A DNA stretch of 64,000 nucleotides from Patescibacteria group bacterium. GTDB taxonomy: Bacteria; Patescibacteriota; UBA1384; JBBRAU01. The notes beneath the pieces were generated by a model. The model was not told where the DNA came from. It ran no database searches and saw only the letters and a list, made by a program, of their open reading frames with translations. How positions within the stretch are numbered: position 1 is the stretch's first letter; each line of letters begins with the position of its first letter. The translations under genes and the position numbers were made by a program. The stretch lies in contig JBBRAU010000001.1 of the NCBI GenBank assembly GCA_038206475.1, forward strand, positions 71,235 to 135,234, in the 5' to 3' direction. Below are positions 4,986 through 61,308 of the stretch, piece by piece.

Positions 4986-4990
4986 ACGGT

Positions 4991-5128: not shown

Positions 5129-5196
5129 TCCGTTCCTTTATCTCTTGTATTGAATAGCTATATGTGACGATACGACAAAATAGCGCTGAATTCAAG

Positions 5197-5205
5197 GTTG
5201 CGGCC
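5197..5205. promoter_or_regulatory. Consensus DnaA box TGTGGATAA upstream of dnaA
   Basis: Exact 9-mer (reverse complement of TTATCCACA) about 55 nt upstream of the dnaA GTG start. Confidence 0.5.
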
Positions 5206-5259
5206 TGTGGATAACTTTGATTATGTGAGTGGAGGAGAAGAACGAAAAAAAGGAAGGCC

Positions 5260-17327: not shown

Positions 17328-17345
17328 GGGTGCAATCTCCCTAAA

Positions 17346-19957: not shown

Positions 19958-20030
19958 TCCTTATTACAAAACCTTCTGCCGAACGACGGCAATTGTGAGT
20001 CTGCCCCTGTCTTTAGTGTAGCGGCTTCGG

Positions 20031-20558: not shown

Positions 20559-20567
20559 AGTTTTAGT

Positions 20568-39824: not shown

Positions 39825-41780
39825 ATGGTCCGTCTAGCCATCTCTTCGCTCGCTGATTTGCCGGTATCAAGTCGCGGCCTCTTTGCTGAGCGTCTGGCGC
39901 AGCTGAAACAGGCAACCCTGCCGGTCGTGGCCGGTTTTGTTGTGTCTGAACCGGCGGCGCTACTACTAAAGCGCGGCAAACAATATTCCCTGTGCGAAGA
40001 TGTTTGGAAGCGTATGACCAAACAAACGGAAACTTGGGTGAGTCGTCAGATGCTGGTGCTTTTGGCTGACCAGACGGTACGTCAGGTGCGGGTGGCAGGC
40101 AGTCAGGCGGAGCTGCGCCAGATACTAACCGAAGTGGCCGAGCAGGTTCTGGCGGCTCACAATCACCTGGAACTCATTGTCCTAACGTTGCCGAGTCAGG
40201 TGAGTTGGTCGGGGACGGTGCGGCAGTCGGGAGACAGTATTGAAGTTACGGCCTACCGCGGTTATCCGGCCTTGGTTGGACCAGCGCCTGCACAAGCCGT
40301 TGTGACACTAGATCCAATCACCCTCGTCGTACGCGAGCAGGCGCTAAAGAAACAGCGCTATGCCTTGGGTATCCGCCACGGCCAAACGACACTGGTTCAC
40401 TTTCGGCCGGACGCAGAGACCGTACCCCACGGCATTCTCATTAGGGCAGCGGCGCTGCAGCGGGCACTCGAAGCTGCCGGTCGTACCGAGCCGGTTAGCT
40501 GGATTGCCGACGCTCGGGGCGAGCTGTCGCTGGTTGGATTACCTGGCGCAGAGACGCACCTGTCGCCGGAGCCGTCTGTAGTGCCACTCTCACCCGGTTT
40601 TGCCGTTGGTCCGGTCCGCCTGATTCGCAGCACCGCTGACTTGGTTCGCATTCTACCCGGTGAAATTGTCATCCTTGATCACTTCAAACGCGGTTTACTC
40701 GAATACCTTGACGCCGTCTCTGGTGTGGTTGTGCAAAGTTTGGCCGGCGGCCAGGCGGTACGCAACGCGATTGAGCAGAAGGGCATCCCGCTCATCTATA
40801 CAAAAGCGCTGCCTCGTCTAAAAACGGGACAACTCATCACGCTTGATGCCATCTCTGGTCAACTGGCACCCGGTAAACTGCGCCGACCGGATGCTGTGCC
40901 CCGTACTGTCCAGCCGAACCCGCCTGGTTTACCGGCCATCGTGGCTGAAGTTGGCTCAGCAGACGCGGCAATTATCGCCAGCCAGGCTGGCGCTGACGGC
41001 GTCATCTTTATGCCGGAGACCCTGCTGCTATCTCAAGGCGCGGCCCTCGGCCGCCACGTTGGTCACAGTCTTGGCCGAGATCGGCTGGCAGCAGCTCTCA
41101 AACCAAAAATTGAACCGACCGCAGCGCTCTGGCCACATACTTCGTTCCGCTACCGCCTGAGCGACTTACTCAGTGATGAGCGGGCCGAGTTGCTGCCAAA
41201 CAGCAGTGCCGAGGCCAACCCGCTGCTCGGTCAACATGGCCTAAGCTACCACCTAGCCGAGTCTGGTTTGGCCCAGACAGAGTTGGTTGTGCTGCGGCAA
41301 CTGCTGGACGAGAAAATGAGCACTATTGAGCTGGTGTTGCCATTTGCCCGCAGCGCCGGCGAAGTTCAGGCATTTTGCGCTTGGCTTGATCAACACCGTT
41401 TCTTGCCGCATACGCTGCCGCGCCACCTGACCGTGGCTACCCCGGCCCTACTGTCGACGTTATCGCAACTAGCCAGCCTGCCGCTGGCGAGTATTGTGTT
41501 TGATTTGGCGACTTTTGCCCGATTGAGTTTTGGCCAATCAGAGCTTGGCGGCACGGCGCCGCTGGAAATGGTGCTAGCAGAGGCACTTGTGCGCTTGGCC
41601 GCCGCAACCGAACGGCTTGACCTGCCCTGGACCCTGCAGGCGCCGATTGAACTGTTAACGCCAGAGTTGCTAACCGAGGCTAAACGTCACCACGTGCATA
41701 GTCTGTTGGTGGCAGCTACCGAGATAGAAGAGACGCGTCAGCTACTCACCTCGCTGCATCACCACACCTCAGCCGCGTAG
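39825..41780 (+). CDS. PEP-utilizing-enzyme-like protein (mobile-domain-like segment without the phosphohistidine)
   Basis: Segment GEIVILDHF..GVVVQSLAGGQAVRNAIEQKGIPLIY..GQLITLDAISGQL resembles the PEP-utilizers mobile domain, but the conserved TSHAA His is replaced (GGQAVRNAI). Confidence 0.35.
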   Translation: MVRLAISSLADLPVSSRGLFAERLAQLKQATLPVVAGFVVSEPAALLLKRGKQYSLCEDVWKRMTKQTETWVSRQMLVLLADQTVRQVRVAGSQAELRQILTEVAEQVLAAHNHLELIVLTLPSQVSWSGTVRQSGDSIEVTAYRGYPALVGPAPAQAVVTLDPITLVVREQALKKQRYALGIRHGQTTLVHFRPDAETVPHGILIRAAALQRALEAAGRTEPVSWIADARGELSLVGLPGAETHLSPEPSVVPLSPGFAVGPVRLIRSTADLVRILPGEIVILDHFKRGLLEYLDAVSGVVVQSLAGGQAVRNAIEQKGIPLIYTKALPRLKTGQLITLDAISGQLAPGKLRRPDAVPRTVQPNPPGLPAIVAEVGSADAAIIASQAGADGVIFMPETLLLSQGAALGRHVGHSLGRDRLAAALKPKIEPTAALWPHTSFRYRLSDLLSDERAELLPNSSAEANPLLGQHGLSYHLAESGLAQTELVVLRQLLDEKMSTIELVLPFARSAGEVQAFCAWLDQHRFLPHTLPRHLTVATPALLSTLSQLASLPLASIVFDLATFARLSFGQSELGGTAPLEMVLAEALVRLAAATERLDLPWTLQAPIELLTPELLTEAKRHHVHSLLVAATEIEETRQLLTSLHHHTSAA

Positions 41781-41839: not shown

Positions 41840-41927
41840 GGAAGGGTGCTGGAGCGGTCGAACAGGCAGACCTGGAAAGTCTGTGTGGCGCAAGTCACCG
41901 TGGGTTCGAATCCCACCCCTTCCGCCA
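41840..41927 (+). tRNA. tRNA-Ser, anticodon GGA (long variable arm)
   Basis: Manual fold: acceptor GGAAGGG/CCCTTCC, anticodon stem CAGAC/GTCTG with loop CTGGAAA, long variable arm, T-arm GTGGG/TTCGAAT/CCCAC, CCA encoded. Confidence 0.85.
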
Positions 41928-42081
41928 ATTGCGTGACCGCCGTTTAGGCGGTTAAGCAATTGGTTGAGAGGTGATGAATGAAAGCCCAGCGAAACTGGGT
42001 TCGGTCGCGCGCCACGTAGTGGCAAGCGGGGGTACCCCTTGAGGCGTAGCCGAAAGAGGGGTCTATTCACCCCTTCCGCCA
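41928..42081 (+). repeat. tRNA-linked element A: 140-nt insert followed by an exact 14-nt copy (CACCCCTTCCGCCA) of the tRNA-Ser 3' end
   Basis: The direct repeat lies at 41914-41927 and 42068-42081. The element starts with a hairpin that includes the tRNA CCA (CCAATTGCGTGACCGCC/GGCGGTTAAGCAATTGG). It shares blocks GGTTCGGTCG, CGGGGGTACCC, GCGTAGCC and AGGGGTCT with element B. Confidence 0.5.
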
Positions 42082-44687: not shown

Positions 44688-44775
44688 GCGCCTGTAGCTC
44701 AGTGGGATAACGACCCGTTGCGCAGCAACGGAACGTTTTCCACTTCGCGCTGCTGGAATTCAAGCTAGTCTCGGA
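44688..44775 (+). pseudogene. Degenerate partial duplicate of tRNA-Arg (first ~20 nt identical to the downstream tRNA 5' end)
   Basis: GAGCGCCTGTAGCTCAGTGG is identical at 44686-44705 and 44798-44817. The upstream copy then diverges and cannot form a D-stem or T-arm. Confidence 0.35.
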
Positions 44776-44799: not shown

Positions 44800-44875
44800 G
44801 CGCCTGTAGCTCAGTGGATAGAGCGCTGCCCTCCGAAGGCAGAGGCCACAGGTTCAAGTCCTGTCAGGCGTACCA
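44800..44875 (+). tRNA. tRNA-Arg, anticodon CCG
   Basis: Manual fold: GCGCCTG acceptor, D-arm GCTC/AGTGGATA/GAGC, anticodon stem CTGCC with loop CTCCGAA, T-arm CACAGG/TTCAAGT/CCTGT, CCA encoded. Confidence 0.85.
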
Positions 44876-44921: not shown

Positions 44922-46514
44922 GTGAGTACTCATCACCTAAGCAAAAACATGACCAAAGAGCAGGAGCGCACAGAGTTGCACCGTGCTATTTGGCAGATTG
45001 CGAACGATCTGCGCGGAGCAGTGGATGGCTGGGATTTCAAACAGTATGTACTTGGAACGCTTTTTTATCGATTCATTAGCGAGAACTTGACGAACTACAT
45101 CAATGCCGATGAACGTCGCACTGGCAAACAAAATTTTGATTATACAGCGCTTGCCGACGAAGAAGCCGAGTTTGGTCGAGCCGATACGGTGAAAGAAAAA
45201 GGCTTCTATATCTTGCCAAGCGAGCTTTTTGTAAACGTATGCATAAATGCCCGCAGCAACGCCAACCTCAACGAAACGCTTTCTGTTATTTTTCGTAACA
45301 TTGAAAACTCCGCCAAAGGTGCAAGCAGTGAGGATGACCTTCGGGGCCTTTTTGATGACTTAGACGTGAACTCAAGTCGACTCGGAAACACGGTAGAAAC
45401 GAGAAATCGCAAGCTCGCCAAGTTGTTAGAAGCGATCGGCGAGCTTCGCCTCGGTGATTACGCGGATAATACTATTGATGCTTTTGGTGATGCATATGAG
45501 TTCTTGATGACCATGTACGCCTCGACGGCTGGCAAATCCGGAGGCGAATTTTTTACGCCACAGGAGGTCAGCGAGCTCCTCGCTGAAATTACCACTGTCG
45601 GCAAAAAGGAAGTAAACAAAGTTTACGACCCAGCCTGTGGGTCTGGCTCACTGCTCCTCAAATTCGCGAAGGTGTTGGGGCGAGAGAATGTGCGCCAAGG
45701 TTTCTTCGGTCAGGAAATCAATCTTACCACCTATAATCTCTGCCGTATCAACATGTTTCTGCATGATGTGAACTACAACCATTTTGATATTGCTCACGGT
45801 GATACACTTACCGATCCGAAACATTGGGACGACGAGCCGTTTGATGCCATCGTCTCTAATCCGCCTTATTCCATCCACTGGGAAGGTGATGCGGATCCCT
45901 TACTTATCAATGATCCGCGTTTTTCACCGGCCGGAGTGCTGGCACCAAAGAGCAAGGCTGACCTGGCATTTACTATGCACATGCTTTCGTGGCTTTCGAC
46001 CAGCGGCACAGCGGCCATCGTTGAGTTTCCTGGCGTTCTCTATCGCGGTGGTGCGGAGCAAAAAATCCGTAAGTACTTGATAGAGAATAATTACATCGAA
46101 GTCGTCATTCAACTTCCGCCCGATCTCTTTTTCGGCACCACCATTGCCACCTGCGTTATTGTGCTCAAGAAGAGCAAAAAGGACAACAAAACGCTCTTTA
46201 TTGATGCCTCGGCCGAATTTGTACGCAACGGCAATAAAAACAAACTATCACAAGCAAACCGCGCTAAGATTTTAGACGCGTTTACCGCACGCAATGATGC
46301 CGATTACTTTGCCAAATTAGTCGACAATAAAACGATTGCCGAGAATGAGTACAATATTGCCGTATCAAGCTATGTTGTGGCAGAAGACACCCGCGAGGTG
46401 GTGGATATTGCGGTGCTCAATACTGAGATCGCCCGCATTGTTGTGAGGCAGAATGAGCTCCGTACGGCGATTGATAAAATCGTCGTCGATATTGAGGGAA
46501 CAAAAGAACCATGA
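44922..46514 (+). CDS. hsdM: Type I restriction-modification system methyltransferase subunit
   Basis: HsdM N-terminal domain, SAM-binding DPACGSGSLL, catalytic NPPY (VSNPPYSIHW); 530 aa. Confidence 0.9.
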   Translation: MSTHHLSKNMTKEQERTELHRAIWQIANDLRGAVDGWDFKQYVLGTLFYRFISENLTNYINADERRTGKQNFDYTALADEEAEFGRADTVKEKGFYILPSELFVNVCINARSNANLNETLSVIFRNIENSAKGASSEDDLRGLFDDLDVNSSRLGNTVETRNRKLAKLLEAIGELRLGDYADNTIDAFGDAYEFLMTMYASTAGKSGGEFFTPQEVSELLAEITTVGKKEVNKVYDPACGSGSLLLKFAKVLGRENVRQGFFGQEINLTTYNLCRINMFLHDVNYNHFDIAHGDTLTDPKHWDDEPFDAIVSNPPYSIHWEGDADPLLINDPRFSPAGVLAPKSKADLAFTMHMLSWLSTSGTAAIVEFPGVLYRGGAEQKIRKYLIENNYIEVVIQLPPDLFFGTTIATCVIVLKKSKKDNKTLFIDASAEFVRNGNKNKLSQANRAKILDAFTARNDADYFAKLVDNKTIAENEYNIAVSSYVVAEDTREVVDIAVLNTEIARIVVRQNELRTAIDKIVVDIEGTKEP

Positions 46515-47530
46515 AACAGGACGCTCAGAACAATGACATCATCATTTATGAAGGCGAGAACGGCCAGCCGAAAATTGAGGTGCGTGTTGAGGGTGAAACC
46601 GTATGGCTTACTATTGACCAAATGGCCACGTTATTTAACAAAGGACGCTCAACGGTAAATGAGCATATCATCAACATCTATCACGAAAAAGAGCTAGTCG
46701 AGGCTGATTCTGTGAGAAAAATCGGTAATTCCGATTTTTCTACCAAACCCACAAACTACTATAATCTCGACGTTGTCATTTCTGTTGGTTACCGCGTAAG
46801 TTCTGTCCAGGGTACGCGCTTTCGCCAGTGGGCAACCGCACGCCTGCGAGAGTACATCGTCAAAGGCTTCACCATGGACGATGAGCGTCTCAAGAGTTCA
46901 GGTGGCGGAACGTACTGGAAAGAGCTTTTAGAACGCATTCGCGATATTCGGAGCAGCGAGAAGGCCCTTTATCGTCAGGTGTTGGATTTGTATGCGACAA
47001 GTCTAGACTACAACTCAAAAAGCAAAGAAACAGGAGAGTTCTTTAAAACGGTGCAGAACAAACTTCACTACGCCACGAACCAGCAAACTGCCACCGAGCT
47101 TATCCATGCGCGGGCTGATGCTAACAAAGACTTCATGGGACTCACCACCTTTGCCGGAACTATACCTAAGCGATCAGAGGTTTCCATAGCCAAGAATTAT
47201 CTGACCGAAGACGAGCTCTTTCGCCTGAACCGCTTGGTGTCTGCTTTTTTCGACCTTGCTGAAATCAAAGCGCAAGACCATATGCCGATGCATATGAAAG
47301 ACTGGATGGCGGAGCTCGACAAATTTGCTGGGATGTATGGTAAGGGCGTACTGAAAAATGCGGGTGTCGTGAGACATGACGCTGCCATGAAGAAAGCCGA
47401 CCGGGAGTACCGAAAATATCAGGCCAAAACCCTTTCACCCGTTGAAGAAGCATATTTGGCCACGATCAAGGCTTTGCAGAAAAAGGTGGAGAAAAAAGTG
47501 AAAGAGAGCAAGCCAAAGAGTAAAAAGTAA
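46511..47530 (+). CDS. RhuM-family protein embedded in the Type I R-M operon
   Basis: N-terminus DIIIYEGENGQPKIEVRVEGETVWLTIDQMATLFNKGRSTVNEHI resembles the RhuM N-terminal region. Position between hsdM and hsdS, with ATGA overlap to hsdM. Confidence 0.55.
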   Translation: MKQDAQNNDIIIYEGENGQPKIEVRVEGETVWLTIDQMATLFNKGRSTVNEHIINIYHEKELVEADSVRKIGNSDFSTKPTNYYNLDVVISVGYRVSSVQGTRFRQWATARLREYIVKGFTMDDERLKSSGGGTYWKELLERIRDIRSSEKALYRQVLDLYATSLDYNSKSKETGEFFKTVQNKLHYATNQQTATELIHARADANKDFMGLTTFAGTIPKRSEVSIAKNYLTEDELFRLNRLVSAFFDLAEIKAQDHMPMHMKDWMAELDKFAGMYGKGVLKNAGVVRHDAAMKKADREYRKYQAKTLSPVEEAYLATIKALQKKVEKKVKESKPKSKK

Positions 47531-47532
47531 TT

Positions 47533-48672
47533 ATGGCAAAAAATCAAAGCAAAATTGAGAAGCTGATTGCCGAGTACTGTCCCAACGAGGTGGAGTTTAA
47601 AAAGCTCGGAGAGGTCTGTGAAATTACTGATAATAAAAGGAGACCCGTAGCATCGAGTTTACGTGTAGCAGGCAAAATACCATACTATGGTGCAAACAAC
47701 ATACAAGACTATGTTGAAGGTTTCACACATGAAGGTGATTTTGTATTAATTGCTGAGGATGGATCCGCAAACTTAGAAAATTATTCAATCCAGTTTGCGA
47801 CCGGAAAGTTCTGGGCAAATAACCATGTTCATGTTGTTAGAGGATACGATAAATTAAATAATAGGTTTTTATTTCATTATTTAAGAAGCATGAAGTTTAT
47901 TCCATTCTTAACAGGTGGAACTCGTGCAAAGCTTACCAAAAGCAAGATGCTAGAAATAATAATCCCTATTCCGCCGCTTGCGGTGCAGGAGGAGATTGTC
48001 AACATTCTTAATAGCTTTACAGAGCTAGAAGCAGAGCTAGAAGCAGAGCTAGAAGCTAGAAAGATGCAGTACGAGCATTACCGCTCGGCACTTCTGACAT
48101 TTAACGAGGGGGGGGTACGGAGGCCGAGGCTTGATGAAGTATGCCAATCGATTCTCGCAGGCGGAGATTTGCCAGAAAATTATTCGAAGGGTCAAAATAT
48201 GCCAACCCAAGAACTTCCATTCCCCATATATTCAAACGGTTCCGATGATAAAGCGTTGTATGGCTATTCTGATAGCTACAGTATCGGTAGCGAGGCCGTA
48301 ACTATTTCGGCGCGTGGGACCATCGGCTACCACACGGTACGCAAAGCGAAATTCACACCGATTGTTCGTCTCATTACCCTTATTCCCAACACTGAAATTA
48401 TTTCACCAAGGTTTTTAAGCTACGCTCTCGATGTTACTGAAATTGGCCATAGCGGCGGTAGTATTCCACAGTTGACTGTCCCAAATGTCAAAAAAATTCA
48501 AATCCCTGTTCCTGAAATCGCCGAGCAAGAGCGTATCGTGTCTATTTTGGATAAGTTTAATGCACTCGTGAATGACATTTCCGTTGGCCTGCCGGCAGAG
48601 CTTGCTGCGCGTCGGTCGCAATACGAATATTATCGAGGTAAGCTCCTGACATTTAATGAAATGACAGTATGA
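47533..48672 (+). CDS. hsdS: Type I restriction-modification specificity subunit
   Basis: Two target-recognition domains separated and followed by conserved helical repeats (..QYEHYRSALLTFNEG and ..QYEYYRGKLLTFNE). The central region contains an ELEA x3 repeat. Confidence 0.85.
   Translation: MAKNQSKIEKLIAEYCPNEVEFKKLGEVCEITDNKRRPVASSLRVAGKIPYYGANNIQDYVEGFTHEGDFVLIAEDGSANLENYSIQFATGKFWANNHVHVVRGYDKLNNRFLFHYLRSMKFIPFLTGGTRAKLTKSKMLEIIIPIPPLAVQEEIVNILNSFTELEAELEAELEARKMQYEHYRSALLTFNEGGVRRPRLDEVCQSILAGGDLPENYSKGQNMPTQELPFPIYSNGSDDKALYGYSDSYSIGSEAVTISARGTIGYHTVRKAKFTPIVRLITLIPNTEIISPRFLSYALDVTEIGHSGGSIPQLTVPNVKKIQIPVPEIAEQERIVSILDKFNALVNDISVGLPAELAARRSQYEYYRGKLLTFNEMTV
48023..48058 (+). repeat. 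12-bp tandem repeat GAGCTAGAAGCA x3 (encodes ELEA x3) in the hsdS central spacer region
   Basis: Exact tandem copies seen directly in the sequence, inside the central conserved region between TRD1 and TRD2. Confidence 0.85.
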
Positions 48673-49334
48673 ACCAAATTATTTACATCCTCACTAATGA
48701 GTCAATGCCTGAATATATAAAAATCGGGTTTACTCATGGCGAGGTGAACGAAAGAATTAAGCAACTTGACAGAACGGGCGTGCCACTTCCTTTTGAAATT
48801 TACTACGCAGCTACTGTGGAGAATGCAGAGAATGAGGAGAAATGGCTACACTCTATTTTTGCTGACCGTAGAGCGCGCGATAGTCGTGAATTTTTCAGGA
48901 TGAGTCCGGAACACGCAACTCTTGCACTTAAGCGGGTTGAAATTACCGAGGAAAAAATAGAGAACATCCTAACTAAAGAGCAGGAAAAAGAAGTAGACAA
49001 GGCAAAAGAAAGAAGGGCGCGATTTCAGTTTGCTCAGTATGGAATTCCTGTCGGTTCTAAACTGACATTCACTAGAGACGAAGGTATCGTCGCTGAAGTT
49101 GTGGAGAACGATAAAATAAAAATTGGTGACAGCGTAAGCAGCCTATCCACCTGCGCGATGGAGCTGTTGGGGTATCAGAGACGGCCGCAGGGAACCTTAT
49201 ACTTCAAGTTCAAGGACGAGATATTAGATGACAGGCGAAAGAGAATGGATGAGGTGGAACCAACGCCAAAGGGCGTAGAAGCTGCTGGTGATGAGTGGAT
49301 GTCACAACAGGCAGAAATAGAACAAGGAAAATAA
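48669..49334 (+). CDS. T5orf172/GIY-YIG-like domain protein embedded between hsdS and hsdR
   Basis: N-terminus IIYILTNESMPEYIKIGFTHGEVNERIKQLDRTGVPLPFEIYYA fits the T5orf172 (GIY-YIG-like) pattern; 221 aa; ATGA overlap with hsdS. Confidence 0.5.
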   Translation: MNQIIYILTNESMPEYIKIGFTHGEVNERIKQLDRTGVPLPFEIYYAATVENAENEEKWLHSIFADRRARDSREFFRMSPEHATLALKRVEITEEKIENILTKEQEKEVDKAKERRARFQFAQYGIPVGSKLTFTRDEGIVAEVVENDKIKIGDSVSSLSTCAMELLGYQRRPQGTLYFKFKDEILDDRRKRMDEVEPTPKGVEAAGDEWMSQQAEIEQGK

Positions 49335-49335
49335 T

Positions 49336-52300
49336 ATGTCCACTAACAATAAATACCATCTTGTTTCTGAAAATACGCAAAGCACCGTTGTGGCCGAATT
49401 TGCACCAGACGGCGTTCGTGTGGCGCACTATCAAAGCGAAGCAGAACTAGAAAAAGCGCTTATTCAGCAGCTTGAAACACAGGCATATGAATACGTGGCC
49501 ATTGCTACTGAAGCCGACTTGGTGGCGAACCTGAGAAAACAGCTAGAGAAACTGAACAATTTTACGTTTGGCGATAGCGAATGGGAACATTTCTTTACTG
49601 GCGAACTTGCCAACCCGAATCAGAGTATTGAAGAAAAGACAGCGACTATTCAAGAGGACTACATTAAAAACCTTACGCGCGATGACGGCACAATCAAAAA
49701 TGTGTACTTGTTAAAAAAAGACAACATTCATAATAATAGCTTGCAGGTTACCAATCAGTACGCCACAGAAGACGGTATGCGGGCTAATCGCTACGATGTG
49801 ACAGTGCTTGTGAATGGTCTGCCAATGGTGCACATCGAGCTAAAACGGCGCGGTATAGCCATTCAAGAGGCCTTCAATCAGATTAATCGCTATCAGCGCG
49901 AAAGTTTTTGGGCGGCCAGTGGGCTATTCGAATATGTGCAGTTGTTTATTATTTCCAATGGTACTCACACCAAATACTACAGCAACACCACGCGTAAAGA
50001 ACACATTAAAGATGCAAGCGAAGGCGCGGCGAAACAAGGCAAGCGCTCAAGCAACAGTTTTGAATTTACAAACTGGTGGGCCGACGCCACTAACCGGCCA
50101 ATTTCCGATCTAATGGATTTTGCCCAGACCTTTTTTGCCAAACACACGCTTCTTAATATCCTCACTCGTTACTGCGTATTTACGACCGATCGACAGCTTC
50201 TGGTGATGCGCCCATATCAAATTGTGGCAACCGAACGAATACTGAACCGCATTGAGGTGAGTACAAATTATAAGCAGCTCGGCACCATAGAAGCCGGTGG
50301 GTATGTATGGCACACCACTGGGTCAGGGAAAACTCTGACAAGCTTCAAAACAGCCCTACAGGTGAGCAAACTGGCGTATGTAGACAAAGTGGTGTTTGTG
50401 GTTGACCGCAAAGATTTAGACTACCAAACTATGCGCGAATACGACAAGTTCGAGAAAGGCGCAGCCAACAGCAACACCTCGACGGCGGTATTAAAACGAC
50501 AGTTGGAAAATCCGCAAGCCCGAATCATTATCACAACCATTCAAAAGCTCGATCATTTCGTAAGCCGCAACGCCGGACACCGTATTTTTGACGGTCACGT
50601 CGTACTTATTTTTGACGAATGCCATCGCTCACAGTTTGGTGATATGCACGCCGCAATCACAAAGGCCTTCAAGAATTACCACATTTTCGGTTTTACGGGC
50701 ACGCCAATTTTTGCGGTCAACGCGTCCTCTGGAGGCCGTCCAGATTTCAAAACGACCGAGCAGGCCTTTGGCGATAAATTGCACACGTACACCATTGTAG
50801 ACGCGATTGCCGACAAAAATGTTCTACCGTTTAAGGTGGATTATGTTTCTACGGTTCGTGAAGCCGAGGATATTGAAGATAAAAAAGTAAGCGATATTGA
50901 TCGCGAGGCAGTGCTCGCTTCTCCAGAGCGTCTGGCGAATATTGTCGGTTATATTCGTGAGCATTTTGATCAAAAAACGAAGCGCAATAGCTTCTACAAA
51001 CTGAAAGACCGGCGGTTGGCCGGCTTTAATTCTCTCTTTGCCGTTTCGTCAATTGATGTCGCTAAGAAGTACTATGTTGAGTTCAAGCGTCAGCTCGCCG
51101 ACGCGCCAAGTGATAAGCGTCTCAAAATAGCGACCATATTCAGCTTTGGTGTCAATGACGATGATGCCGACGGTATGCTAGATGAAAACTCAGATGACAC
51201 GAGCGGGCTAGACGCAAGTTCACGGGACTTTTTGGAACATGCTATCGCTGACTATAATGCGATTTTTGGGACTTCGTACGACACGTCGTCCGACAAATTT
51301 TCCAATTATTACAAAGATGTGAGCTTGCGCGTTAAAGGCCGCGAGATTGATATTTTGATCGTCGTCAACATGTTTTTAACTGGCTTTGATGCAACAACGC
51401 TTAACACACTCTGGGTTGATAAAAACTTGCGACTTCACGGCCTATTGCAAGCTTTCTCGCGGACAAACCGTATTCTCAACAGCGTAAAGACTTTTGGCCA
51501 TATCGTGTGCTTCCGCAATTTAGAAAAGGCAACGAATGAATCAATTGCGCTTTTTGGTGATAAAGAAGCCAGAGGCGTTGTATTGCTAAAATCATATGCT
51601 GAATACTACGGGGGTTACGTGCACGGTGATAAGGCGGTGCTTGGCTATGCAAATCTCGTCGCTGAGCTGCTTGAGAAGTATCCTATTGGGCAGGCTATTA
51701 TTGGCGAACAAAGTCAAAAGCATTTTATCAGACTATATGGCGCAATTTTGCGTGTGCGGAACATTTTGACGACATTTGATGAATTTGTGGGCAACGAAAT
51801 TTTGACCGCGCGTGATGTGCAAGACTACCACAGCATGTACATTGACCTCTATAACGAATTTAGCAAAGGCGTGGAAGACGACAAAGAGAACATTATCGAT
51901 GACGTCGTATTTGAGATGGAACTGATCAAACAGATTGAAATAAATATTGACTACATTTTGGGGCTCATCAAACACTATCATGAAGATCATACTCAAAACC
52001 GTGAGCTTTTGGCGGATATCAACAAAGCAATCGACTCAAGTATTGAACTGCGAAACAAAAAGGATCTTATTAATCAATTTATTTTATCGCTCGACATACA
52101 CTCAGTGGTTGATGATGATTGGCAGAAGTTTGTCAACCAGAAAAAGACGGAAGAACTTGAGCAAATTATTGAGACCGAAGGGCTGGATCGCGATGCCACC
52201 TATACGTTTGTGCGAAACGCCTTCCGCGACGGAGGCGTAATGGTGACCGGCACAGACATCTCTCGTGTTCTGCCTCCGGTATCTCGCTTTTTAGCAACCG

Positions 52301-52395
52301 GCGAGCGTTCTGAGAAACGCAATAGCGTGCTCAATAAATTAACGAGTTTCTTTGAGCGATTCTTCGATATCTCCGGCGGTTCATTCACGGACTAG
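49336..52395 (+). CDS. hsdR: Type I restriction endonuclease R subunit
   Basis: N-terminal nuclease domain, DEAD-box helicase motifs (TGSGKTLT, DECHRSQ), 1019 aa. Confidence 0.9.
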   Translation: MSTNNKYHLVSENTQSTVVAEFAPDGVRVAHYQSEAELEKALIQQLETQAYEYVAIATEADLVANLRKQLEKLNNFTFGDSEWEHFFTGELANPNQSIEEKTATIQEDYIKNLTRDDGTIKNVYLLKKDNIHNNSLQVTNQYATEDGMRANRYDVTVLVNGLPMVHIELKRRGIAIQEAFNQINRYQRESFWAASGLFEYVQLFIISNGTHTKYYSNTTRKEHIKDASEGAAKQGKRSSNSFEFTNWWADATNRPISDLMDFAQTFFAKHTLLNILTRYCVFTTDRQLLVMRPYQIVATERILNRIEVSTNYKQLGTIEAGGYVWHTTGSGKTLTSFKTALQVSKLAYVDKVVFVVDRKDLDYQTMREYDKFEKGAANSNTSTAVLKRQLENPQARIIITTIQKLDHFVSRNAGHRIFDGHVVLIFDECHRSQFGDMHAAITKAFKNYHIFGFTGTPIFAVNASSGGRPDFKTTEQAFGDKLHTYTIVDAIADKNVLPFKVDYVSTVREAEDIEDKKVSDIDREAVLASPERLANIVGYIREHFDQKTKRNSFYKLKDRRLAGFNSLFAVSSIDVAKKYYVEFKRQLADAPSDKRLKIATIFSFGVNDDDADGMLDENSDDTSGLDASSRDFLEHAIADYNAIFGTSYDTSSDKFSNYYKDVSLRVKGREIDILIVVNMFLTGFDATTLNTLWVDKNLRLHGLLQAFSRTNRILNSVKTFGHIVCFRNLEKATNESIALFGDKEARGVVLLKSYAEYYGGYVHGDKAVLGYANLVAELLEKYPIGQAIIGEQSQKHFIRLYGAILRVRNILTTFDEFVGNEILTARDVQDYHSMYIDLYNEFSKGVEDDKENIIDDVVFEMELIKQIEINIDYILGLIKHYHEDHTQNRELLADINKAIDSSIELRNKKDLINQFILSLDIHSVVDDDWQKFVNQKKTEELEQIIETEGLDRDATYTFVRNAFRDGGVMVTGTDISRVLPPVSRFLATGERSEKRNSVLNKLTSFFERFFDISGGSFTD

Positions 52396-52505
52396 CCAAA
52401 GTCACCATACGTAAATGGCAAGAGTAGGGTTTGGGCATCTTGGAAAAATAGCTACTCTAAAGCGCGTTTTTTGACACTCTGCTCGCGCCTTGCTTGAGTG
52501 AAGTT

Positions 52506-55451
52506 ATGCCAGACGACCTCGTTCAACAAGTAAAGCAACGCCTTGACATCCTTGACTTGGTCCAAGGCTATGTTCAGTTGAAAAAAACCGGCATTAACTG
52601 GAAGGGCCTCTGCCCGTTCCACCAAGAGAAAACGCCGTCGTTTACCGTCAACCAAGAACGTCAGAGCTGGCACTGTTTTGGCTGCTTCCCGAAGGGTTCT
52701 CATGTAAAAACTCCAAGAGGTTTTTGCGATATTGACCAACTTCGAGCAGGAGACGTTGTTATCTCGGGGAAAGGGCAGGAAAAGTCCGTACTCACGACGC
52801 ATCGTCATATGTATAAGGGCGAGCTCGTCCGTATTTCTTTATGCAAGCTTGGTGGCGAAGTGGCGCTAACCGGGGATCATAAAGTATTCGCTTTACGCGG
52901 AGCGCCTTACACCAAAATCTATAAAAACTTCAGCCGACGCTTGAAGCGCTACCAACAACTGCCAGCGGACCAATATCGACAAAAGCTCGACCGCTACTTC
53001 CCTGTCGAAAAAGTGGAGGCACACGAGTTAACGATTGGCGATTTGTTATTATATCCAATCTCCTACAGGACCGAACCAATCTCTTCGCTAGTCCCTTGTG
53101 ACCATTTAACAAAAACATTCCGTCTTGGGCCGAAACCGAGTGATTTACCAAAAGAGCTCCCGATTACTGACAGTCTACTGAAATTACTCGGATACTATAT
53201 TGCTGAGGGTAGTAACCATCGTGCCTACATTCGATTTAGCCTCGGTGGCCATGAGCTGAAACTCGCTAAAGAGATTCAAGTCTTGCTCAAAGAAGTGTTT
53301 GGCCTGGTCTCTAGCATCCACGTTCGCCAAGGAGGCAAGCCCGGGATAGAGGTTACGTGCTGTCACGCTGCGCTAGCCGATATTTTTGGCAACTTGTGTG
53401 GCAAAGGGGCGGCCAATAAACACATCCCTTTTGAGCTTCGGCACTTGCCAGTAGGCCAACAGCAGGTGCTGCTTAACGCCATCTGGACGGGTGACGGTAC
53501 TGCTCGTGCTAAACATCGGTCACTTAAAATTGAACGCTCAATCGGCAGTATTTCGCAGACACTGGCCGAGCAAATAGTTGATATCTTGCTGCGCAGGCAT
53601 ATCTTTCCCTCGCTTCAGGTTATCCAAGCACATACGAGCGGCGATGGCGTCAAACACAGAATGGCCTACACTGTTGTTTGGGGAGAGGCTGGTGAGGATA
53701 AATACAATAGTGTCTACCAAGCGGCGGGCGGTACTCATTATTGGGTGTTGCCAGTTGTCCATATAGCAAAAGAACCCTTCTGCGACGAGGTGTTCAACCT
53801 GACGATTGAGGATGACCATTCGTATGTCGCGCGCAATTTCGCGGTTGCCAACTGCGGCGAGGGCGGGGACATTTTTACCTTTGTCGAAAAGATTGAACAC
53901 GTTGAATTTAAAGAGGCGCTGGAGCTGCTGGCTGGCCGGGTTGGGCTGGAGGTCAAACCGCAAACGCCGGTTGAGCGTCAGCAGAAGGGCGAAAAGGCGA
54001 AACTTGAGGAGCTATACCAGCTGGCCAGCCGCTTCTACCACGCGTTGCTCATTAACCATCCGCTTGGCCAAGCTGCCCGCGATTACCTCGCCAAGCGGGG
54101 TGTTTCAGCTGAGTCGGTCAAAGCGTGGCAATTGGGTGTGGCGCCCGACCACTGGGACGCCCTGCTCTCGGCACTGCAAAAGCGCGGTTTCACGGCCGAT
54201 GAGTTGGTCAAGGCCGGATTGGCCGTCAAAAATGAGCGCGGCAACATTTATGACCGCTTTCGGAACCGCTTGTTGTTCCCGATTATCACCGCCAGCGGCC
54301 AACCGGTCGCTTTCTCTGGCCGGGTGATAACGGCTGATCAAGAACCCAAATACTTAAACTCGCCTGAGAGCCTGCTCTATCGCAAGAGCAGTGTTGTGAT
54401 GGGACTGAATTTAGCCAAAGAGGCAATTCGGAAGGCCGGCCAAGTAATGGTGGTCGAAGGCAATTTAGATGTCCTTATTTGCCAGCAGTTTGGCCTGACC
54501 AACACCGTCGCTACCGGCGGCACGGCGCTAACGTCTGACCACCTGCGCTTACTGGCTCGCTACGCCCCAGTCGTTATTTTTGCCTTTGATGCGGACGCCG
54601 CCGGCCAGAAAGCGGCTGAAAAGGCGGCGCTGTTGGCGCTAGAGGTGGGCCTGGAGCCACGCTTCATTGCCTTGCCGGCCGGAGATGACCCAGACTCGCT
54701 GCTACGCCGGGATGAAGCCGCCTTCCGCCAGGCTATGGCTGCCGCTCTGCCGGCCGTGCCGTACTTTTTAGAACGGGCGCTCAATGAGTATGGCCAGGCT
54801 ACCGCACAAGCCAAAAAGCAGGTGGCGGCAGCGGTGGTGCCGTTGCTCCGCCGCATACACGATCCAGTCGAGCAGGCGGATTCATTGCAGCAGGTGGCCG
54901 ACCGACTGCATGTGCCACGAGAGGCCATAGAGAGTGCTGTTTCAGCTGAGACGAAGGCAAAAACGACCGTTCCGGTGGTAGCGGCGACCGCCCGCCGCGG
55001 TCCGCTCGAGCCAAGCCAGCGCTTGTTTGGCCTGCTGCTGCTCTCGGAACGGCCACTGCCACCGCTTGACCCACTGCTACAGGATAGTCCAGACAAAACG
55101 CTGCAGTTTTTGCAGGCTCGGCAGGCAGAGGGGATTGGCGACAAGATGAGTTGGGCGACGTGGCAGGCCAAGCAACCGCAGCCAATCCAGGCGCGTTTGG
55201 CCTCACTGCTGACCGTGGCGGCCGAAGCCTACGGTGAGTTGCCACAGGAGCAGTTCGAGGCTGAAATTACGCTGCTTTTGGCGGCGCTGCGTTCCCGGGT
55301 TCTTGAGCACCAGCAATCGGACCGCCAGGCCGAAATTCGGCTGGCCGAGCAGGCGGGCGACAAGGCGCGCGTACGCTCACTGCTGCAAGAGATGATGGAT
55401 GATTTGGTCATGCCCCCACCGGCCAGCGCGGATCCTCGTCAAAAAACATAA
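52506..55451 (+). CDS. dnaG: DNA primase DnaG interrupted by an intein
   Basis: Zinc ribbon CPFHQEKTPSF..WHCFG. The extein resumes CGEGGDIFTFV. TOPRIM (VVEGNLDVL) and a C-terminal helicase-binding domain are present. Start taken at ATG 52506 (MPDDLVQQVK); the ORF-track 52494 is TTG. Confidence 0.85.
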   Translation: MPDDLVQQVKQRLDILDLVQGYVQLKKTGINWKGLCPFHQEKTPSFTVNQERQSWHCFGCFPKGSHVKTPRGFCDIDQLRAGDVVISGKGQEKSVLTTHRHMYKGELVRISLCKLGGEVALTGDHKVFALRGAPYTKIYKNFSRRLKRYQQLPADQYRQKLDRYFPVEKVEAHELTIGDLLLYPISYRTEPISSLVPCDHLTKTFRLGPKPSDLPKELPITDSLLKLLGYYIAEGSNHRAYIRFSLGGHELKLAKEIQVLLKEVFGLVSSIHVRQGGKPGIEVTCCHAALADIFGNLCGKGAANKHIPFELRHLPVGQQQVLLNAIWTGDGTARAKHRSLKIERSIGSISQTLAEQIVDILLRRHIFPSLQVIQAHTSGDGVKHRMAYTVVWGEAGEDKYNSVYQAAGGTHYWVLPVVHIAKEPFCDEVFNLTIEDDHSYVARNFAVANCGEGGDIFTFVEKIEHVEFKEALELLAGRVGLEVKPQTPVERQQKGEKAKLEELYQLASRFYHALLINHPLGQAARDYLAKRGVSAESVKAWQLGVAPDHWDALLSALQKRGFTADELVKAGLAVKNERGNIYDRFRNRLLFPIITASGQPVAFSGRVITADQEPKYLNSPESLLYRKSSVVMGLNLAKEAIRKAGQVMVVEGNLDVLICQQFGLTNTVATGGTALTSDHLRLLARYAPVVIFAFDADAAGQKAAEKAALLALEVGLEPRFIALPAGDDPDSLLRRDEAAFRQAMAAALPAVPYFLERALNEYGQATAQAKKQVAAAVVPLLRRIHDPVEQADSLQQVADRLHVPREAIESAVSAETKAKTTVPVVAATARRGPLEPSQRLFGLLLLSERPLPPLDPLLQDSPDKTLQFLQARQAEGIGDKMSWATWQAKQPQPIQARLASLLTVAAEAYGELPQEQFEAEITLLLAALRSRVLEHQQSDRQAEIRLAEQAGDKARVRSLLQEMMDDLVMPPPASADPRQKT
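52683..53852 (+). mobile_element. Intein (390 aa) with LAGLIDADG homing endonuclease inserted in the DnaG zinc-binding motif
   Basis: Begins with Cys right after HCFG (CFPKGSHVKT..) and has a block-B-like TGDH. Two LAGLIDADG-like motifs are LLGYYIAEGS and LLNAIWTGDG. It ends ..DDHSYVARNFAVAN followed by extein Cys. Removing it restores HCFGCGEGGD. Confidence 0.7.
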
Positions 55452-56744: not shown

Positions 56745-56819
56745 TCCTGGGTAGCTCAATGGCAGAGCGGCTGGCTGTTAACCAGCGGGTTGTCGGTTCG
56801 AGTCCGACCCCAGGAGCCA
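56745..56819 (+). tRNA. tRNA-Asn, anticodon GTT
   Basis: Manual fold: acceptor TCCTGGG/CCCAGGA, anticodon stem GCTGG with loop CTGTTAA, T-arm GTCGG/TTCGAGT/CCGAC, CCA encoded. Confidence 0.85.
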
Positions 56820-56955
56820 AAACAATGCAGGCGTAGCCTGTTTTTGTTTTGGCTCCTGGGGGACAGGAGTTGAACTGCCGCATGGCGGTTCGGTCGTGAG
56901 CGGAGTGAACGGGGGTACCCTGCGTAGCCAGGGGTCTGTCCGACCCCAGGAGCCA
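56820..56955 (+). repeat. tRNA-linked element B: ~118-nt insert followed by an exact 18-nt copy (GTCCGACCCCAGGAGCCA) of the tRNA-Asn 3' end
   Basis: The direct repeat lies at 56802-56819 and 56938-56955. An 18-nt perfect inverted copy of the tRNA 3' end plus trailer (56808-56825 vs 56844-56861) forms a long hairpin. It shares conserved blocks with element A. Confidence 0.5.
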
Positions 56956-57021
56956 ATACCGAGATTTAGAAGATTAAGCATCGCGGCCCTTGACGCAATG
57001 CTGATTGTAGTATTTTATGGA

Positions 57022-58743
57022 TTATCCGAAGGTGAAGGCAAAAGCCTCAATGCTTGGACTTTCGAAGATAAGGGTAAGGACGTGCCAGTCTCCCGCAGTC
57101 TTCAAATGAATTAGGTGGTACAGTCGATCTTCGGAAATCTGGAAGTTGCCATTTTTGACGTCGGCTCCGCCCGAAGCACCCGCTGCCTTGCCATCAAGCA
57201 GTACCCGCACGGTGGCGGAAACGCCGTTTTGCGGCTTCATAACCAAATAAACGTCTTTACCGGTAAAATGGAATGAGAGCGAATCTCCGGATGCGCTGGA
57301 AGTAATAGAGTCGGTTCCGCTTTGCCAGTTTCCAGAAAGGCCCCATTCGTTATTGCCAAGTTTCAGCGGATTAGTTTCCGATGAGTACCTATCCCGGCGC
57401 GCCAAACCCAAATAGGTTTCTGGAGACTGCTGTTCATGGGGAGTGGTATCGGACAGCTTTGGTGCCATGGAGGGCAGGGCGGAAACCTTGGCCTCTTTCA
57501 GAAGTGAGCGGATGTTGGCCTCAGTTTCGTCATAATTTCCCTCGCCGAAATGGGTAGCCCGCACCTGCCCCTTGGCGTCAATCAGGTACTCGGCCGGCCA
57601 ATACTGGTTGTCGTAGGCTTTCCACGTAGCAAAGTCATTGTCCTGGGCTACCGGATAGTGAATTGCGTACTGCTTGATGGCCGCTGCAAGGTTTTTGCTC
57701 TCCTTTTCGAAGGCGAACTCTGGTGAGTGTACACCCACCACCACAAAGCCCTGATCTTTGTAGGTATCGTACCAGTTGGTTATGTGTGGAAGGGTTCTAA
57801 TGCAGTTAATGCAGGAATAGGTCCAGAAATCGACCAATACTACCTTGCCTCTCAGACTTTCTACAGTGAGTGGCTTACTATTCAGCCAGCCGGTGATGCC
57901 GGAGAATTCGGGAGCTTTCCCCAGCACTGGCAGGCCTGAGGAGGCTCCGTTGATGATTTGTGAAGTGCTGGGCATGGCATTGTCGTCATTACTTTTTAAT
58001 TTTTTCAACTGACCTTTCACCAAATCGCCTTGCTCCAACTGCTGGGTTAAGCCGGAGCTAATGCTGCTTGGCAGCTTGGCCAATAAACTCGTTTGTAGCG
58101 TTCGGTCAAGGCCGAAGAGCATTGCAATTGCCGTGAACACCATGATGGCTCCAAACACCATTTGTACTTTTGGTATTGACTTATTGACTGAGCGCATGCG
58201 GCGCAATAAGCCTTGGCCGCCGTAGGTAAGAATCAAAAGCGGAATGCTAACGCCCAGCGCGTAGGCCTCGGTAATTAAAACTGAAGCAAGGGTTACAGTG
58301 CTGGAAGCGGCCAAGGATATAACTGAGGCGACAATAGGCCCAACGCAAGGCGTCCACACTAAGCCAAGGCTGACGCCAATAACGAATCCGCCTAAAAAAT
58401 CGCTGCGCTTGGAATCTATTTTCACCTGAGGAATACGGCTGCTCACCCAAGCTTCAAACGCCGCAAGCAATTTGGGCACGAGAAGCATGACGCCAAAAAC
58501 CAGAATTACGATGATGGCGAATAAGCGAAGGCCATCAGGGCTTATCCCCAGATGCCGTGTTAGCCAGCTAAGAGAAAGGGTAAAAAAGGTAAAGCTCAAG
58601 ACCAGCCCGGTTACAATACCAAGAGGCCGTTGTTTGCCGCCGCTAATCCCGGCTGAAAGCACTATCGGTAGGACCGGCAGGATGCAAGGGGCGAATATGG
58701 TGGCAATTCCGGCCAGGAACGCGAAAAGGATAAGTAAGGGCAT
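57022..58743 (-). CDS. Thiol:disulfide interchange protein: DsbD/CcdA-like transmembrane domain fused to a thioredoxin-like (TlpA/ResA) domain
   Basis: N-terminal polytopic region with conserved Cys pair (FAPCILPVLP). Periplasmic redoxin domain with WTYSCINC (CxxC). 573 aa. Confidence 0.65.
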   Translation of the reverse strand: MPLLILFAFLAGIATIFAPCILPVLPIVLSAGISGGKQRPLGIVTGLVLSFTFFTLSLSWLTRHLGISPDGLRLFAIIVILVFGVMLLVPKLLAAFEAWVSSRIPQVKIDSKRSDFLGGFVIGVSLGLVWTPCVGPIVASVISLAASSTVTLASVLITEAYALGVSIPLLILTYGGQGLLRRMRSVNKSIPKVQMVFGAIMVFTAIAMLFGLDRTLQTSLLAKLPSSISSGLTQQLEQGDLVKGQLKKLKSNDDNAMPSTSQIINGASSGLPVLGKAPEFSGITGWLNSKPLTVESLRGKVVLVDFWTYSCINCIRTLPHITNWYDTYKDQGFVVVGVHSPEFAFEKESKNLAAAIKQYAIHYPVAQDNDFATWKAYDNQYWPAEYLIDAKGQVRATHFGEGNYDETEANIRSLLKEAKVSALPSMAPKLSDTTPHEQQSPETYLGLARRDRYSSETNPLKLGNNEWGLSGNWQSGTDSITSSASGDSLSFHFTGKDVYLVMKPQNGVSATVRVLLDGKAAGASGGADVKNGNFQISEDRLYHLIHLKTAGDWHVLTLIFESPSIEAFAFTFG

Positions 58744-61269: not shown

Positions 61270-61308
61270 CTCGTCCCTTCGAGCGTGTTTCACGCTCGAA
61301 GGGACGAG
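61270..61308 (+). promoter_or_regulatory. Perfect 18-bp inverted repeat with 3-nt loop in the leader of the 61365 gene
   Basis: CTCGTCCCTTCGAGCGTG-ttt-CACGCTCGAAGGGACGAG. No U-tract follows. It sits between a TTGACA-containing region and the AAGGAG RBS of the next gene. Confidence 0.5.

What the first reader, a model, noticed from the sequence alone, without database searches (positions are those of the whole stretch)
56745..56955. Element B can fold so that the tRNA-Asn acceptor end is sequestered in an 18-bp hairpin
This is the tRNA-Asn side of the element pair described above. It is listed separately because of one structural feature. The last 12 nt of tRNA-Asn plus 6 trailer nt (CCCCAGGAGCCAAAACAA) are perfectly complementary to 56844-56861. 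The 18-nt loop between them itself holds the small hairpin CAGGC-gtag-CCTG. This fold would compete with acceptor-stem formation in a readthrough transcript, or it would act as a strong structure directly at the tRNA 3' processing site. Either way it is a candidate maturation control element.
Basis: seen in the sequence. Interest (0 to 1): 0.55.

Follow-up and report, generated by a model that had tools for sequence, protein, structure and literature searches.

The report
Insertion scar behind a tRNA gene
The 18-bp hairpin that could hide the end of tRNA-Asn is real, but it looks like one face of a small insertion (terminator, inverted copy and direct copy of the tRNA end) found only in this Patescibacteria genome, so it is more probably a footprint of DNA insertion at a tRNA gene than a control device for tRNA maturation.

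Summary
56808-56825 and 56844-56861 are a perfect 18-bp inverted repeat enclosing a small hairpin. (1) The small hairpin plus T-run is a textbook bidirectional terminator, and its U-tract is the start of the complementary arm, so the acceptor end is sequestered only in read-through RNA. (2) The last 18(-22) nt of tRNA-Asn recur as a direct repeat at 56938-59, so the arm can pair either way. (3) A 51-67-nt GC-rich module directly before that repeat is shared (48 of 51 aligned bases) with "Element A" behind tRNA-Ser(GGA). There the module again abuts a copy of the local tRNA end, but the hairpin covers only GCCA. Five orthologous tRNA-Asn loci in relatives lack the element. One of them carries real recombinase islands bounded by the same kind of repeat. 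No Rfam family matches, no recombinase gene lies in the window, and I found no other copy in the collections I could scan. Best reading (about 0.45): a miniature or remnant site-specific insertion into the T-loop-to-CCA part of tRNA genes, which supplies the terminator. A role in tRNA maturation is unproven and not conserved. Interest is modest.

The parts
56745..56819 (+). tRNA-Asn(GTT) gene with encoded CCA
   Evidence: ARAGORN; Rfam RF00005, 69.1 bits
56802..56823 (+). Direct repeat copy 1 (GTCCGACCCCAGGAGCCAAAAC): tRNA positions 59-76 plus 4 trailer nt
   Evidence: the repeat finder family D1
56808..56825 (+). Left arm of the 18-bp perfect inverted repeat (last 12 nt of the tRNA plus 6 trailer nt)
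   Evidence: the repeat finder I1
56827..56851 (.). Bidirectional intrinsic-terminator-like site: hairpin GCAGGC-GTA-GCCTGT, then TTTTTGTTTT (A-tract upstream for the minus strand)
   Evidence: scan_promoters_terminators, both strands
56844..56861 (+). Right arm a' (TTGTTTTGGCTCCTGGGG). It is complementary to the tRNA end and, at 16 nt and 94%, to the downstream copy. Its first 8 nt are the terminator U-tract
   Evidence: the repeat finder I1 and I2; duplex energy -31.9 kcal/mol against -12.9+-3.3 for shuffles, 0 of 2000 as good
56862..56886 (+). Locus-specific linker. GACAG (56862-66) pairs with CTGTC (56936-40). 5' strand and loop (56870-56883) of a hairpin UUGAACUGCC/GGCGGUUCGG whose 3' strand (56884-56893) runs into the shared module
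   Evidence: MFE fold of 56849-56955, z = -4.0; no significant similarity to element A here
56887..56937 (+). Shared GC-rich module GGTTCGGTCG...CGGGGGTACCC...GCGTAGCC...AGGGGTCT (51 nt), homologous to 41998-42064
   Evidence: 48 matches, 3 mismatches, 16 gap columns; score 67 against 13.7+-5.3 for shuffles; motif hits; no Rfam hit
56938..56959 (+). Direct repeat copy 2 (GTCCGACCCCAGGAGCCAATAC): displaced copy of the tRNA-Asn 3' end
   Evidence: the repeat finder D1, 95%
41840..41927 (+). tRNA-Ser(GGA), host of the sister element A
   Evidence: ARAGORN and Rfam
41924..41964 (+). Element A two-tier hairpin: GCCAATTGC/GCAATTGGT (9 bp, includes the discriminator and CCA) around ACCGCC-GTTTA-GGCGGT. 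No T-tract follows
   Evidence: MFE fold; sequence; no plus-strand terminator call
41998..42064 (+). Element A copy of the shared module (67 nt)
42068..42081 (+). Displaced copy of the tRNA-Ser 3' end (CACCCCTTCCGCCA, 14 of 14)
   Evidence: sequence

Best explanation
The hairpin belongs to a roughly 140-nt non-coding insertion. The insertion lies between two direct copies of the last 18(-22) nt of tRNA-Asn, running from the T-loop to the CCA. I read it as the footprint of a site-specific, integrase-type insertion into the 3' part of the tRNA gene, of the kind that regenerates the tRNA end and displaces the original fragment downstream. The inserted DNA is either a remnant or a miniature, non-autonomous element. 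Its tRNA-proximal end supplies a bidirectional intrinsic terminator for tRNA-Asn and the convergent dsbD-like gene. Its distal end is a 51-67-nt GC-rich module that always abuts the displaced tRNA fragment; a related copy did the same at tRNA-Ser(GGA). The inverted copy of the tRNA end (a') makes the 18-bp helix. It may be a stem partner of the displaced copy, or the product of a replication template switch around the terminator hairpin. Shown: the repeats, the terminator-like site, the shared module, absence from the orthologous loci examined, and use of the same site by real islands in a relative. Inferred: the recombination mechanism, and that acceptor sequestration is incidental, arising only in read-through RNA.
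For: A direct repeat of the tRNA 3' end starts at position 59 in the T-loop and runs past the CCA. Such a regenerated target plus displaced fragment is how island ends are mapped at tRNA genes (PMC4383910 abstract; Ms6 attP core/attB in the T-loop, PMC1762012 abstract; tRNA fragments arising from integration, PMC9897764 abstract). The same architecture occurs at tRNA-Ser, with a homologous module touching the displaced fragment. In relative L012 the same rpoD/tRNA-Asn/dsbD-like locus holds a 7.7-kb island with a large serine recombinase, plus two further copies of the tRNA-Asn end. L007 and L008 show tRNA-Asn followed directly by a plain terminator, with no element. The inner hairpin plus T-tract is terminator-like on both strands. 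The module is not in Rfam. Its transcriptional context differs between the two copies: one is upstream of a co-oriented gene, the other is in a convergent 3' region. Three of five tRNA genes in the window carry a terminal-fragment duplicate 110-155 nt away.
Against: No integrase, transposase or reverse transcriptase lies inside the 136-154 nt or anywhere in the 64-kb window. Two independent deletions would not be expected to leave such similar architectures. The two copies target different tRNAs while sharing one arm. The tRNA-proximal parts are not homologous. An 18-bp inverted copy of the core is not a standard att feature. No donor element, empty-site allele or further copy was found. Predicted helices conserved between the copies use G-U pairs on the tRNA strand, which hints at RNA-level constraint.
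Confidence: 0.45

Rival explanations
1. One reading: a cis-acting RNA element in the tRNA-Asn trailer that controls maturation. The 18-bp helix competes with the acceptor stem, or blocks 3' processing, in read-through precursors. The downstream copy acts as an anti-sequestering partner, giving a two-state switch.
For: The 18-bp helix beats the cloverleaf by about 10 kcal/mol once 56861 is transcribed. a' can alternatively pair with the downstream copy (I2; -31.9 kcal/mol). The whole region folds better than shuffles (z = -7.3). Hairpins engaging the CCA occur behind both tRNAs. The P1-type helix is kept with different sequences and with G-U pairs on this strand.
Against: A canonical terminator precedes and overlaps a'. 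Element A does not touch the acceptor stem, and its a':a complementarity is not above chance. The element is absent from all five orthologous loci. The minus strand folds about as well. Only two copies exist, so covariation cannot be tested.
Confidence: 0.15
2. A purely local replication error: template switching at the terminator quasi-palindrome created a direct-inverted-direct triplication of the tRNA 3' end, with no mobile element involved.
For: The a / a' / a order centres on a hairpin. The 18 of 18 perfection of a' contrasts with the diverged module. Template switching is documented to create perfect stems in one step (PMC8794818).
Against: It cannot explain why a homologous 51-67-nt module sits in the same place at a different tRNA 15 kb away. 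Similarity of the element interior to the cognate tRNA beyond the perfect arms is not significant.
Confidence: 0.12
3. A new kind of small mobile or structured element that carries, or re-copies at each insertion, an 18-nt image of the 3' end of its target tRNA (positions 59-76, the same stretch that defines retroviral primer-binding sites) plus its complement, and uses that pairing for targeting.
For: The repeat begins exactly after position 58 in B, and approximately there in A. a' begins TGG(C), complementary to (G)CCA, in both copies. The module is always fused to the cognate tRNA end. No family matches.
Against: Only 12 nt of a' match the tRNA itself; the remainder matches the gene's trailer, so the template was DNA or precursor, not mature tRNA. 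A's a' is not significant. No reverse transcriptase or recombinase is nearby. There are only two copies, in one genome.
Confidence: 0.1
4. An assembly artefact: a chimeric palindromic join at a tRNA gene.
For: Inverted and direct short repeats around hairpins are typical chimera signatures. Logan contig L002 starts inside tRNA-Ser.
Against: A second assembler (Logan contig L001) gives the identical 3-copy arrangement across the whole of element B with flanking genes on both sides. Element A's module is also reproduced (L002).
Confidence: 0.03

Closest known systems
Integration sites of genomic islands and prophages in tRNA genes (regenerated tRNA end plus displaced fragment; T-loop sublocation)
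   Same: A direct repeat of the tRNA 3' segment, starting in the T-loop and running to or past the CCA, bounds foreign DNA. The tRNA stays intact. The same tRNA-Asn site holds real islands in a relative (L012).
   Different: The bounded DNA is only 136-154 nt. It carries no recombinase or cargo, contains an inverted copy of the repeat, and shares just one arm between two different tRNA targets.
Rho-independent bidirectional terminators behind tRNA genes
   Same: A GC hairpin (GCAGGC-GTA-GCCTGT) flanked by an A-tract and a T-tract, between convergent transcription units, directly after the CCA.
   Different: The stem can be extended by 11 more base pairs into the acceptor strand of the tRNA. 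Element A's equivalent hairpin has no T-tract.
Cis-mobilizable, non-autonomous integrative elements (CIMEs; from my own knowledge)
   Same: att-flanked DNA without its own recombination genes, which would depend on an integrase supplied in trans.
   Different: Known examples are kilobases long. Nothing here shows mobility, and no partner integrase was found.
Template-switch (quasi-palindrome) mutations that create perfect hairpins (PMC8794818)
   Same: A perfect 18-bp stem next to a pre-existing hairpin could arise in one replication event without selection.
   Different: This does not account for the downstream direct copy or the shared module.
tRNA trailer-derived RNAs (3'ETS sponges) and T-box antiterminators that pair with NCCA (from my own knowledge)
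   Same: Sequence directly 3' of a tRNA with potential RNA function. UGGC/UGGU is complementary to GCCA.
   Different: There is no Rfam T-box hit. Pairing extends far beyond 4 nt. No regulated gene is common to both copies, and there is no expression evidence.

Membership tests
tRNA-gene integration site (attL/attR of an integrated element) | A direct repeat of a tRNA segment bounds the inserted DNA, and the tRNA gene is regenerated | tested here: met
   22-nt repeat (1 mismatch) at 56802-23 and 56938-59; 14-nt exact repeat at 41914-27 and 42068-81; both tRNAs score as intact
tRNA-gene integration site (attL/attR of an integrated element) | The repeat starts at a known sublocation (anticodon loop, T-loop or 3' end) | tested here: met
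   In B the repeat begins at G59 of the T-loop. In A exact identity begins at C63, with degenerate identity from A59 (sequence)
tRNA-gene integration site (attL/attR of an integrated element) | A recombinase gene lies within the bounded segment | tested here: not met
   The segments are 136 and 154 nt. The two ORFs overlapping element B that were scanned (56778-56981 minus, 56896-57114 plus) have no Pfam hit. There is no integrase, transposase or RT anywhere in the window
tRNA-gene integration site (attL/attR of an integrated element) | An empty site exists in related genomes, or the same site is occupied by other elements | tested here: met
   L007 and L008 have tRNA-Asn followed by a plain terminator. 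L012 has a serine-recombinase island and three copies of the tRNA end
tRNA-gene integration site (attL/attR of an integrated element) | A free (attP-bearing) form, or excision, can be demonstrated | tested here: inconclusive
   No match in viral, plasmid or phage collections. Raw reads could not be examined
Intrinsic terminator | A GC-rich hairpin immediately followed by a U-tract | tested here: met
   56827-56841 plus TTTTTGTTTT on the plus strand, and a mirror site on the minus strand. Not met for element A
tRNA-like structure / acceptor minihelix | Acceptor helix with a single-stranded NCCA 3' end, plus a T-arm | tested here: not met
   In the fold of 56849-56955 the GCCA is fully paired with UGGC. 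The Rfam tRNA model finds no second hit at E<=10. ARAGORN finds none
T-box leader | Stem I/specifier plus an antiterminator bulge UGGN pairing with NCCA, upstream of an aminoacyl-tRNA-related gene | tested here: not met
   No RF00230 hit even at E<=10. The downstream genes are an FMN reductase and a convergent dsbD-like gene
Retroelement primer-binding site | About 18 nt complementary to the 3' end of the mature tRNA, next to a reverse transcriptase element | tested here: not met
   Only 12 nt match the tRNA; 6 match the gene's trailer. No RT domain in the window
REP/BIME-type dispersed palindromes | Many dispersed intergenic copies in the genome | tested here: not met
   Two copies in 64 kb by nhmmer. 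GCGTAGCC is only marginally above expectation (6 hits against 2.5 expected; 5 of 100 shuffles reach 6), and the hits outside the elements fall within long ORFs.
Any Rfam 15 family | Covariance-model match | tested here: not met
   The only gathering-level hits are the five tRNAs. The E<=10 scans give only spurious miRNA-hairpin hits over the 18-bp stem

The most novel reading that the evidence does not exclude
The 51-67-nt GC-rich module fused to an 18-nt image of the 3' end of the adjacent tRNA is a so far undescribed miniature element of Patescibacteria. It could be an 'att-only' non-autonomous integrative element, or a structured RNA/DNA that uses tRNA-end complementarity for targeting. It inserts behind tRNA genes, brings a terminator, and can trap the acceptor end of read-through precursors.
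Probability: 0.2. Interest if true: 0.65.

Novelty: new variant of a known kind. Interest (0 to 1): 0.3.

Why it matters
If the insertion reading is right, the hairpin is an evolutionary by-product. It should not be annotated as a regulatory RNA. It also adds to the picture that tRNA genes of these small-genome bacteria are heavily worked over by mobile DNA: introns, homing-endonuclease genes, islands and small scars. If the minority reading is right, it would be a very small mobile or regulatory element whose specificity is written as a copy of the tRNA end. That could be tested with existing reads and a genome-wide search.

Tried and rejected
- **Rfam:** the gathering-threshold scan and the permissive scans gave only tRNAs and spurious miRNA-like hits on the long stem.
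- **Exact-pattern scans for the module:** these covered GTDB genomes, JGI metagenomes and IMG/VR. Every hit inspected was coding or otherwise unrelated DNA with no adjacent tRNA gene.
- **blastn against phages and plasmids:** nothing.
- **Viral scans for the tRNA ends:** the Asn 18-mer gave 0 hits. The Ser 15-mer gave more than 120 loci, none with the module.
- **Orthologue route for element A:** the upstream protein is an orphan and the FMN reductase has no relative above 51% identity, so no orthologous tRNA-Ser locus was obtained.
- **Extending beyond the window:** I got only short Logan contigs without tRNAs.
- **Module as a decayed group I intron of tRNA-Asn (as in L007):** similarity is not above shuffles.
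- **Element interior as a decayed direct or inverted copy of the cognate tRNA beyond the perfect arms (T-loop insertion / full triplication):** suggestive by eye but not significant.
- **An a':a closing stem in element A:** not above chance.
- **GTA/GTAG mini-hairpins as a genome-wide REP-like repeat:** not supported.
- **A covariance model from two sequences:** I judged it uninformative and did not build it.

Full report
**Setting.** The window comes from a Patescibacteria (CPR) genome. Its RpoD is 100% identical to a protein on a 208-kb NCBI contig, and the named relatives are Patescibacteria/Berkelbacteria. Locally, dnaG (with a LAGLIDADG intein) and rpoD are followed by tRNA-Asn(GTT) at 56745-56819. 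The finding comes next, and then a convergent dsbD-like gene ending at 57022.

- 56808-56825 (the last 12 nt of the tRNA plus AAACAA) and 56844-56861 are 18 of 18 complementary, with 18 nt between them.
- That loop contains CAGGC-GTA-GCCTG.
- Only one other perfect 18-bp inverted repeat within 120 nt exists in the 64 kb.
- The tRNA-end 12-mer occurs three times against 0.28 expected.
- A Logan assembly of run SRR19962014 contains the identical arrangement, so an assembly artefact is unlikely.

1. The inner hairpin followed by TTTTTGTTTT scores as an intrinsic terminator on both strands. The complementary arm begins inside that T-tract. Folding of growing transcripts shows the cloverleaf intact up to 56851/56856. 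Only when 56861 is included does the 18-bp helix win, by about 10 kcal/mol over a cloverleaf-enforced fold. Sequestration therefore requires read-through of a good terminator.
2. The last 18 nt of the tRNA (positions 59-76, starting in the T-loop) plus 4 trailer nt recur at 56938-56959 with one mismatch. The arm a' pairs with this copy too (16 nt, 94%). The duplex energy is -31.9 kcal/mol against -12.9+-3.3 for shuffles. The local order is direct, inverted, direct.
3. "Element A" lies behind tRNA-Ser(GGA) (41840-41927). It has a two-tier hairpin starting at G73-CCA (9 bp, GCCAAUUGC/GCAAUUGGU), then about 35 nt, then a module, then a 14 of 14 copy of the tRNA-Ser end at 42068-42081.

**How elements A and B compare.**
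- Homology is confined to the 51-67 nt directly before the displaced tRNA fragment: GGTTCGGTCG...CGGGGGTACCC...GCGTAGCC...AGGGGTCT. This gives 48 matches, 3 mismatches and 16 gap columns, with a score of 67 against 13.7+-5.3 for shuffles.
- The tRNA-proximal halves are not similar (12.5 against 11.7+-5.8).
- In A the hairpin leaves the acceptor stem untouched.
- In A, complementarity between the putative a' and the tRNA end is no better than chance.

**Is it a known RNA?** No Rfam family matches at gathering thresholds, or at E<=10.
- It is not tRNA-like: in the predicted fold the GCCA is fully paired.
- It is not a T-box.
- It is not related to the group I intron present in the tRNA-Asn of close relatives.
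- Both strands fold about equally well. The extended P1-type helix uses G-U pairs only on the tRNA strand, a weak hint of RNA-level constraint. With two sequences covariation cannot be tested.
- The module has 59-65% GC against 53% for the window.

**Distribution.**
- nhmmer finds only these two copies in the window and in all 145 loci fetched.
- Exact-motif scans of GTDB representative genomes, JGI metagenomes and IMG/VR returned only unrelated hits: coding DNA or sequence with no adjacent tRNA gene.
- blastn against phage and plasmid collections found nothing.
- These scans require exact motifs, so diverged relatives would be missed.

**Orthologous loci.** I examined five tRNA-Asn loci from relatives whose RpoD is 75-88% identical.
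- L007 and L008 carry a group I intron at position 35/36, as recently described for this phylum (PMC13011429). A simple terminator follows directly after the CCA.
- L009-L011 have unrelated downstream sequence.
- L021 has a decayed 5' half-copy of the tRNA plus an ORF with a GIY-YIG-like motif (by eye), upstream of the intact gene.
- L012 has a 7.7-kb island directly behind tRNA-Asn. The island carries a large serine recombinase, followed by two more copies of the tRNA-Asn 3' end and then the dsbD-like gene.
- So the element is not conserved, and this tRNA end is a demonstrated insertion hot spot.
- Within the window, three of five tRNA genes carry a terminal-fragment duplicate 110-155 nt away: Ser 3', Asn 3' and Arg(CCG) 5'.

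**Interpretation.** A tRNA 3' segment repeated from the T-loop to the CCA, with foreign DNA in between and the gene left intact, is the standard signature of site-specific integration (PMC4383910; PMC1762012; PMC9897764). I therefore read element B, and element A, as a miniature or remnant insertion of that type. Its proximal end provides the terminator. Its distal, conserved module is the arm next to the displaced fragment. The perfect inverted copy may be an original stem partner of the displaced fragment, or it may have been created or homogenised by a template switch around the terminator hairpin (PMC8794818).

This reading has real weaknesses:
- There is no recombinase in the 64 kb.
- The two copies have strikingly similar architecture.
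- They target different tRNAs.
- No donor or empty-site allele was found.

I put it at about 0.45. A purely local template-switch triplication fails to explain the shared module (about 0.12). A truly new tRNA-end-guided mini-element gets about 0.1-0.2.

**Verdict.** The feature is real. This is most likely a new small variant of a known phenomenon, insertion footprints at tRNA genes. Interest is modest unless a genome-wide survey shows that the module is a recurrent, tRNA-end-coupled element.

Noticed in passing
window 44688-44705 and 44800-44875: The first 18 nt of tRNA-Arg(CCG) are duplicated exactly 112 nt upstream of the gene. A terminator-like hairpin follows the copy (CCGTTGC-GCA-GCAACGG plus TTTT). 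This mirrors the 3' duplicates at tRNA-Ser and tRNA-Asn.
   Followed up: partly
window 44922-52395: Directly downstream of tRNA-Arg(CCG) lies a type I restriction-modification cluster (HsdM, HsdS, HsdR) interrupted by RhuM-family and T5orf172 genes. It looks like an island, but no 3' repeat of the tRNA marks its far end.
   Followed up: partly
window 52494-55451: DnaG primase is 985 aa, against about 570-610 aa in relatives, because of an intein with a LAGLIDADG domain.
   Followed up: no
L007 4326-4537; L008 about 4338-4846: tRNA-Asn of close relatives carries a group I intron at anticodon-loop position 35/36, so ARAGORN misses the gene. The L008 intron is about 500 nt. This matches the recently published Patescibacteria intron site (PMC13011429). 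The window's tRNA-Asn is intronless.
   Followed up: partly
L021 4037-4451: Upstream of an intact tRNA-Asn sits a decayed 5' half-copy of the same tRNA, interrupted by two GC hairpins. An ORF with a GIY-YIG-like motif (judged by eye, not scanned) follows. This is another kind of mobile-DNA footprint at this gene.
   Followed up: no
L012 11658-20280: The same locus in a relative holds a 7.7-kb element (large serine recombinase, Phage_rep_O-like gene) starting inside the tRNA-Asn 3' end. An 830-bp segment with a HicA-like gene follows, each bounded by a copy of GACCC(G/A)GGGAGCCA.
   Followed up: partly
window 61270-61308: The only other perfect 18-bp hairpin in the window (3-nt loop). It lies about 55 nt upstream of the ORF starting at 61365. 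Function unknown.
   Followed up: no
window 39825-41780: A 651-aa ORF just upstream of tRNA-Ser has no Pfam domain. It has no homologue other than itself in the 5.8-billion-protein search.
   Followed up: partly
window 3576-9056 and 16098-26818: The window contains the yidC-dnaA-dnaN-recF region, presumably the replication origin. It also contains a cluster with type IV secretion-like domains (TraG P-loop, PrgI, TrbL/VirB6) next to M23 and CHAP peptidase genes.
   Followed up: no
window 56829-56838, 56922-56929, 42043-42051, 42011-42023: Small GC stems closed by a GTA triloop (GGC-GTA-GCC, CAC-GTA-GTG) recur four times inside the two elements. The 9-mer GGCGTAGCC is identical in B's terminator hairpin and in A's module.
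   Followed up: partly
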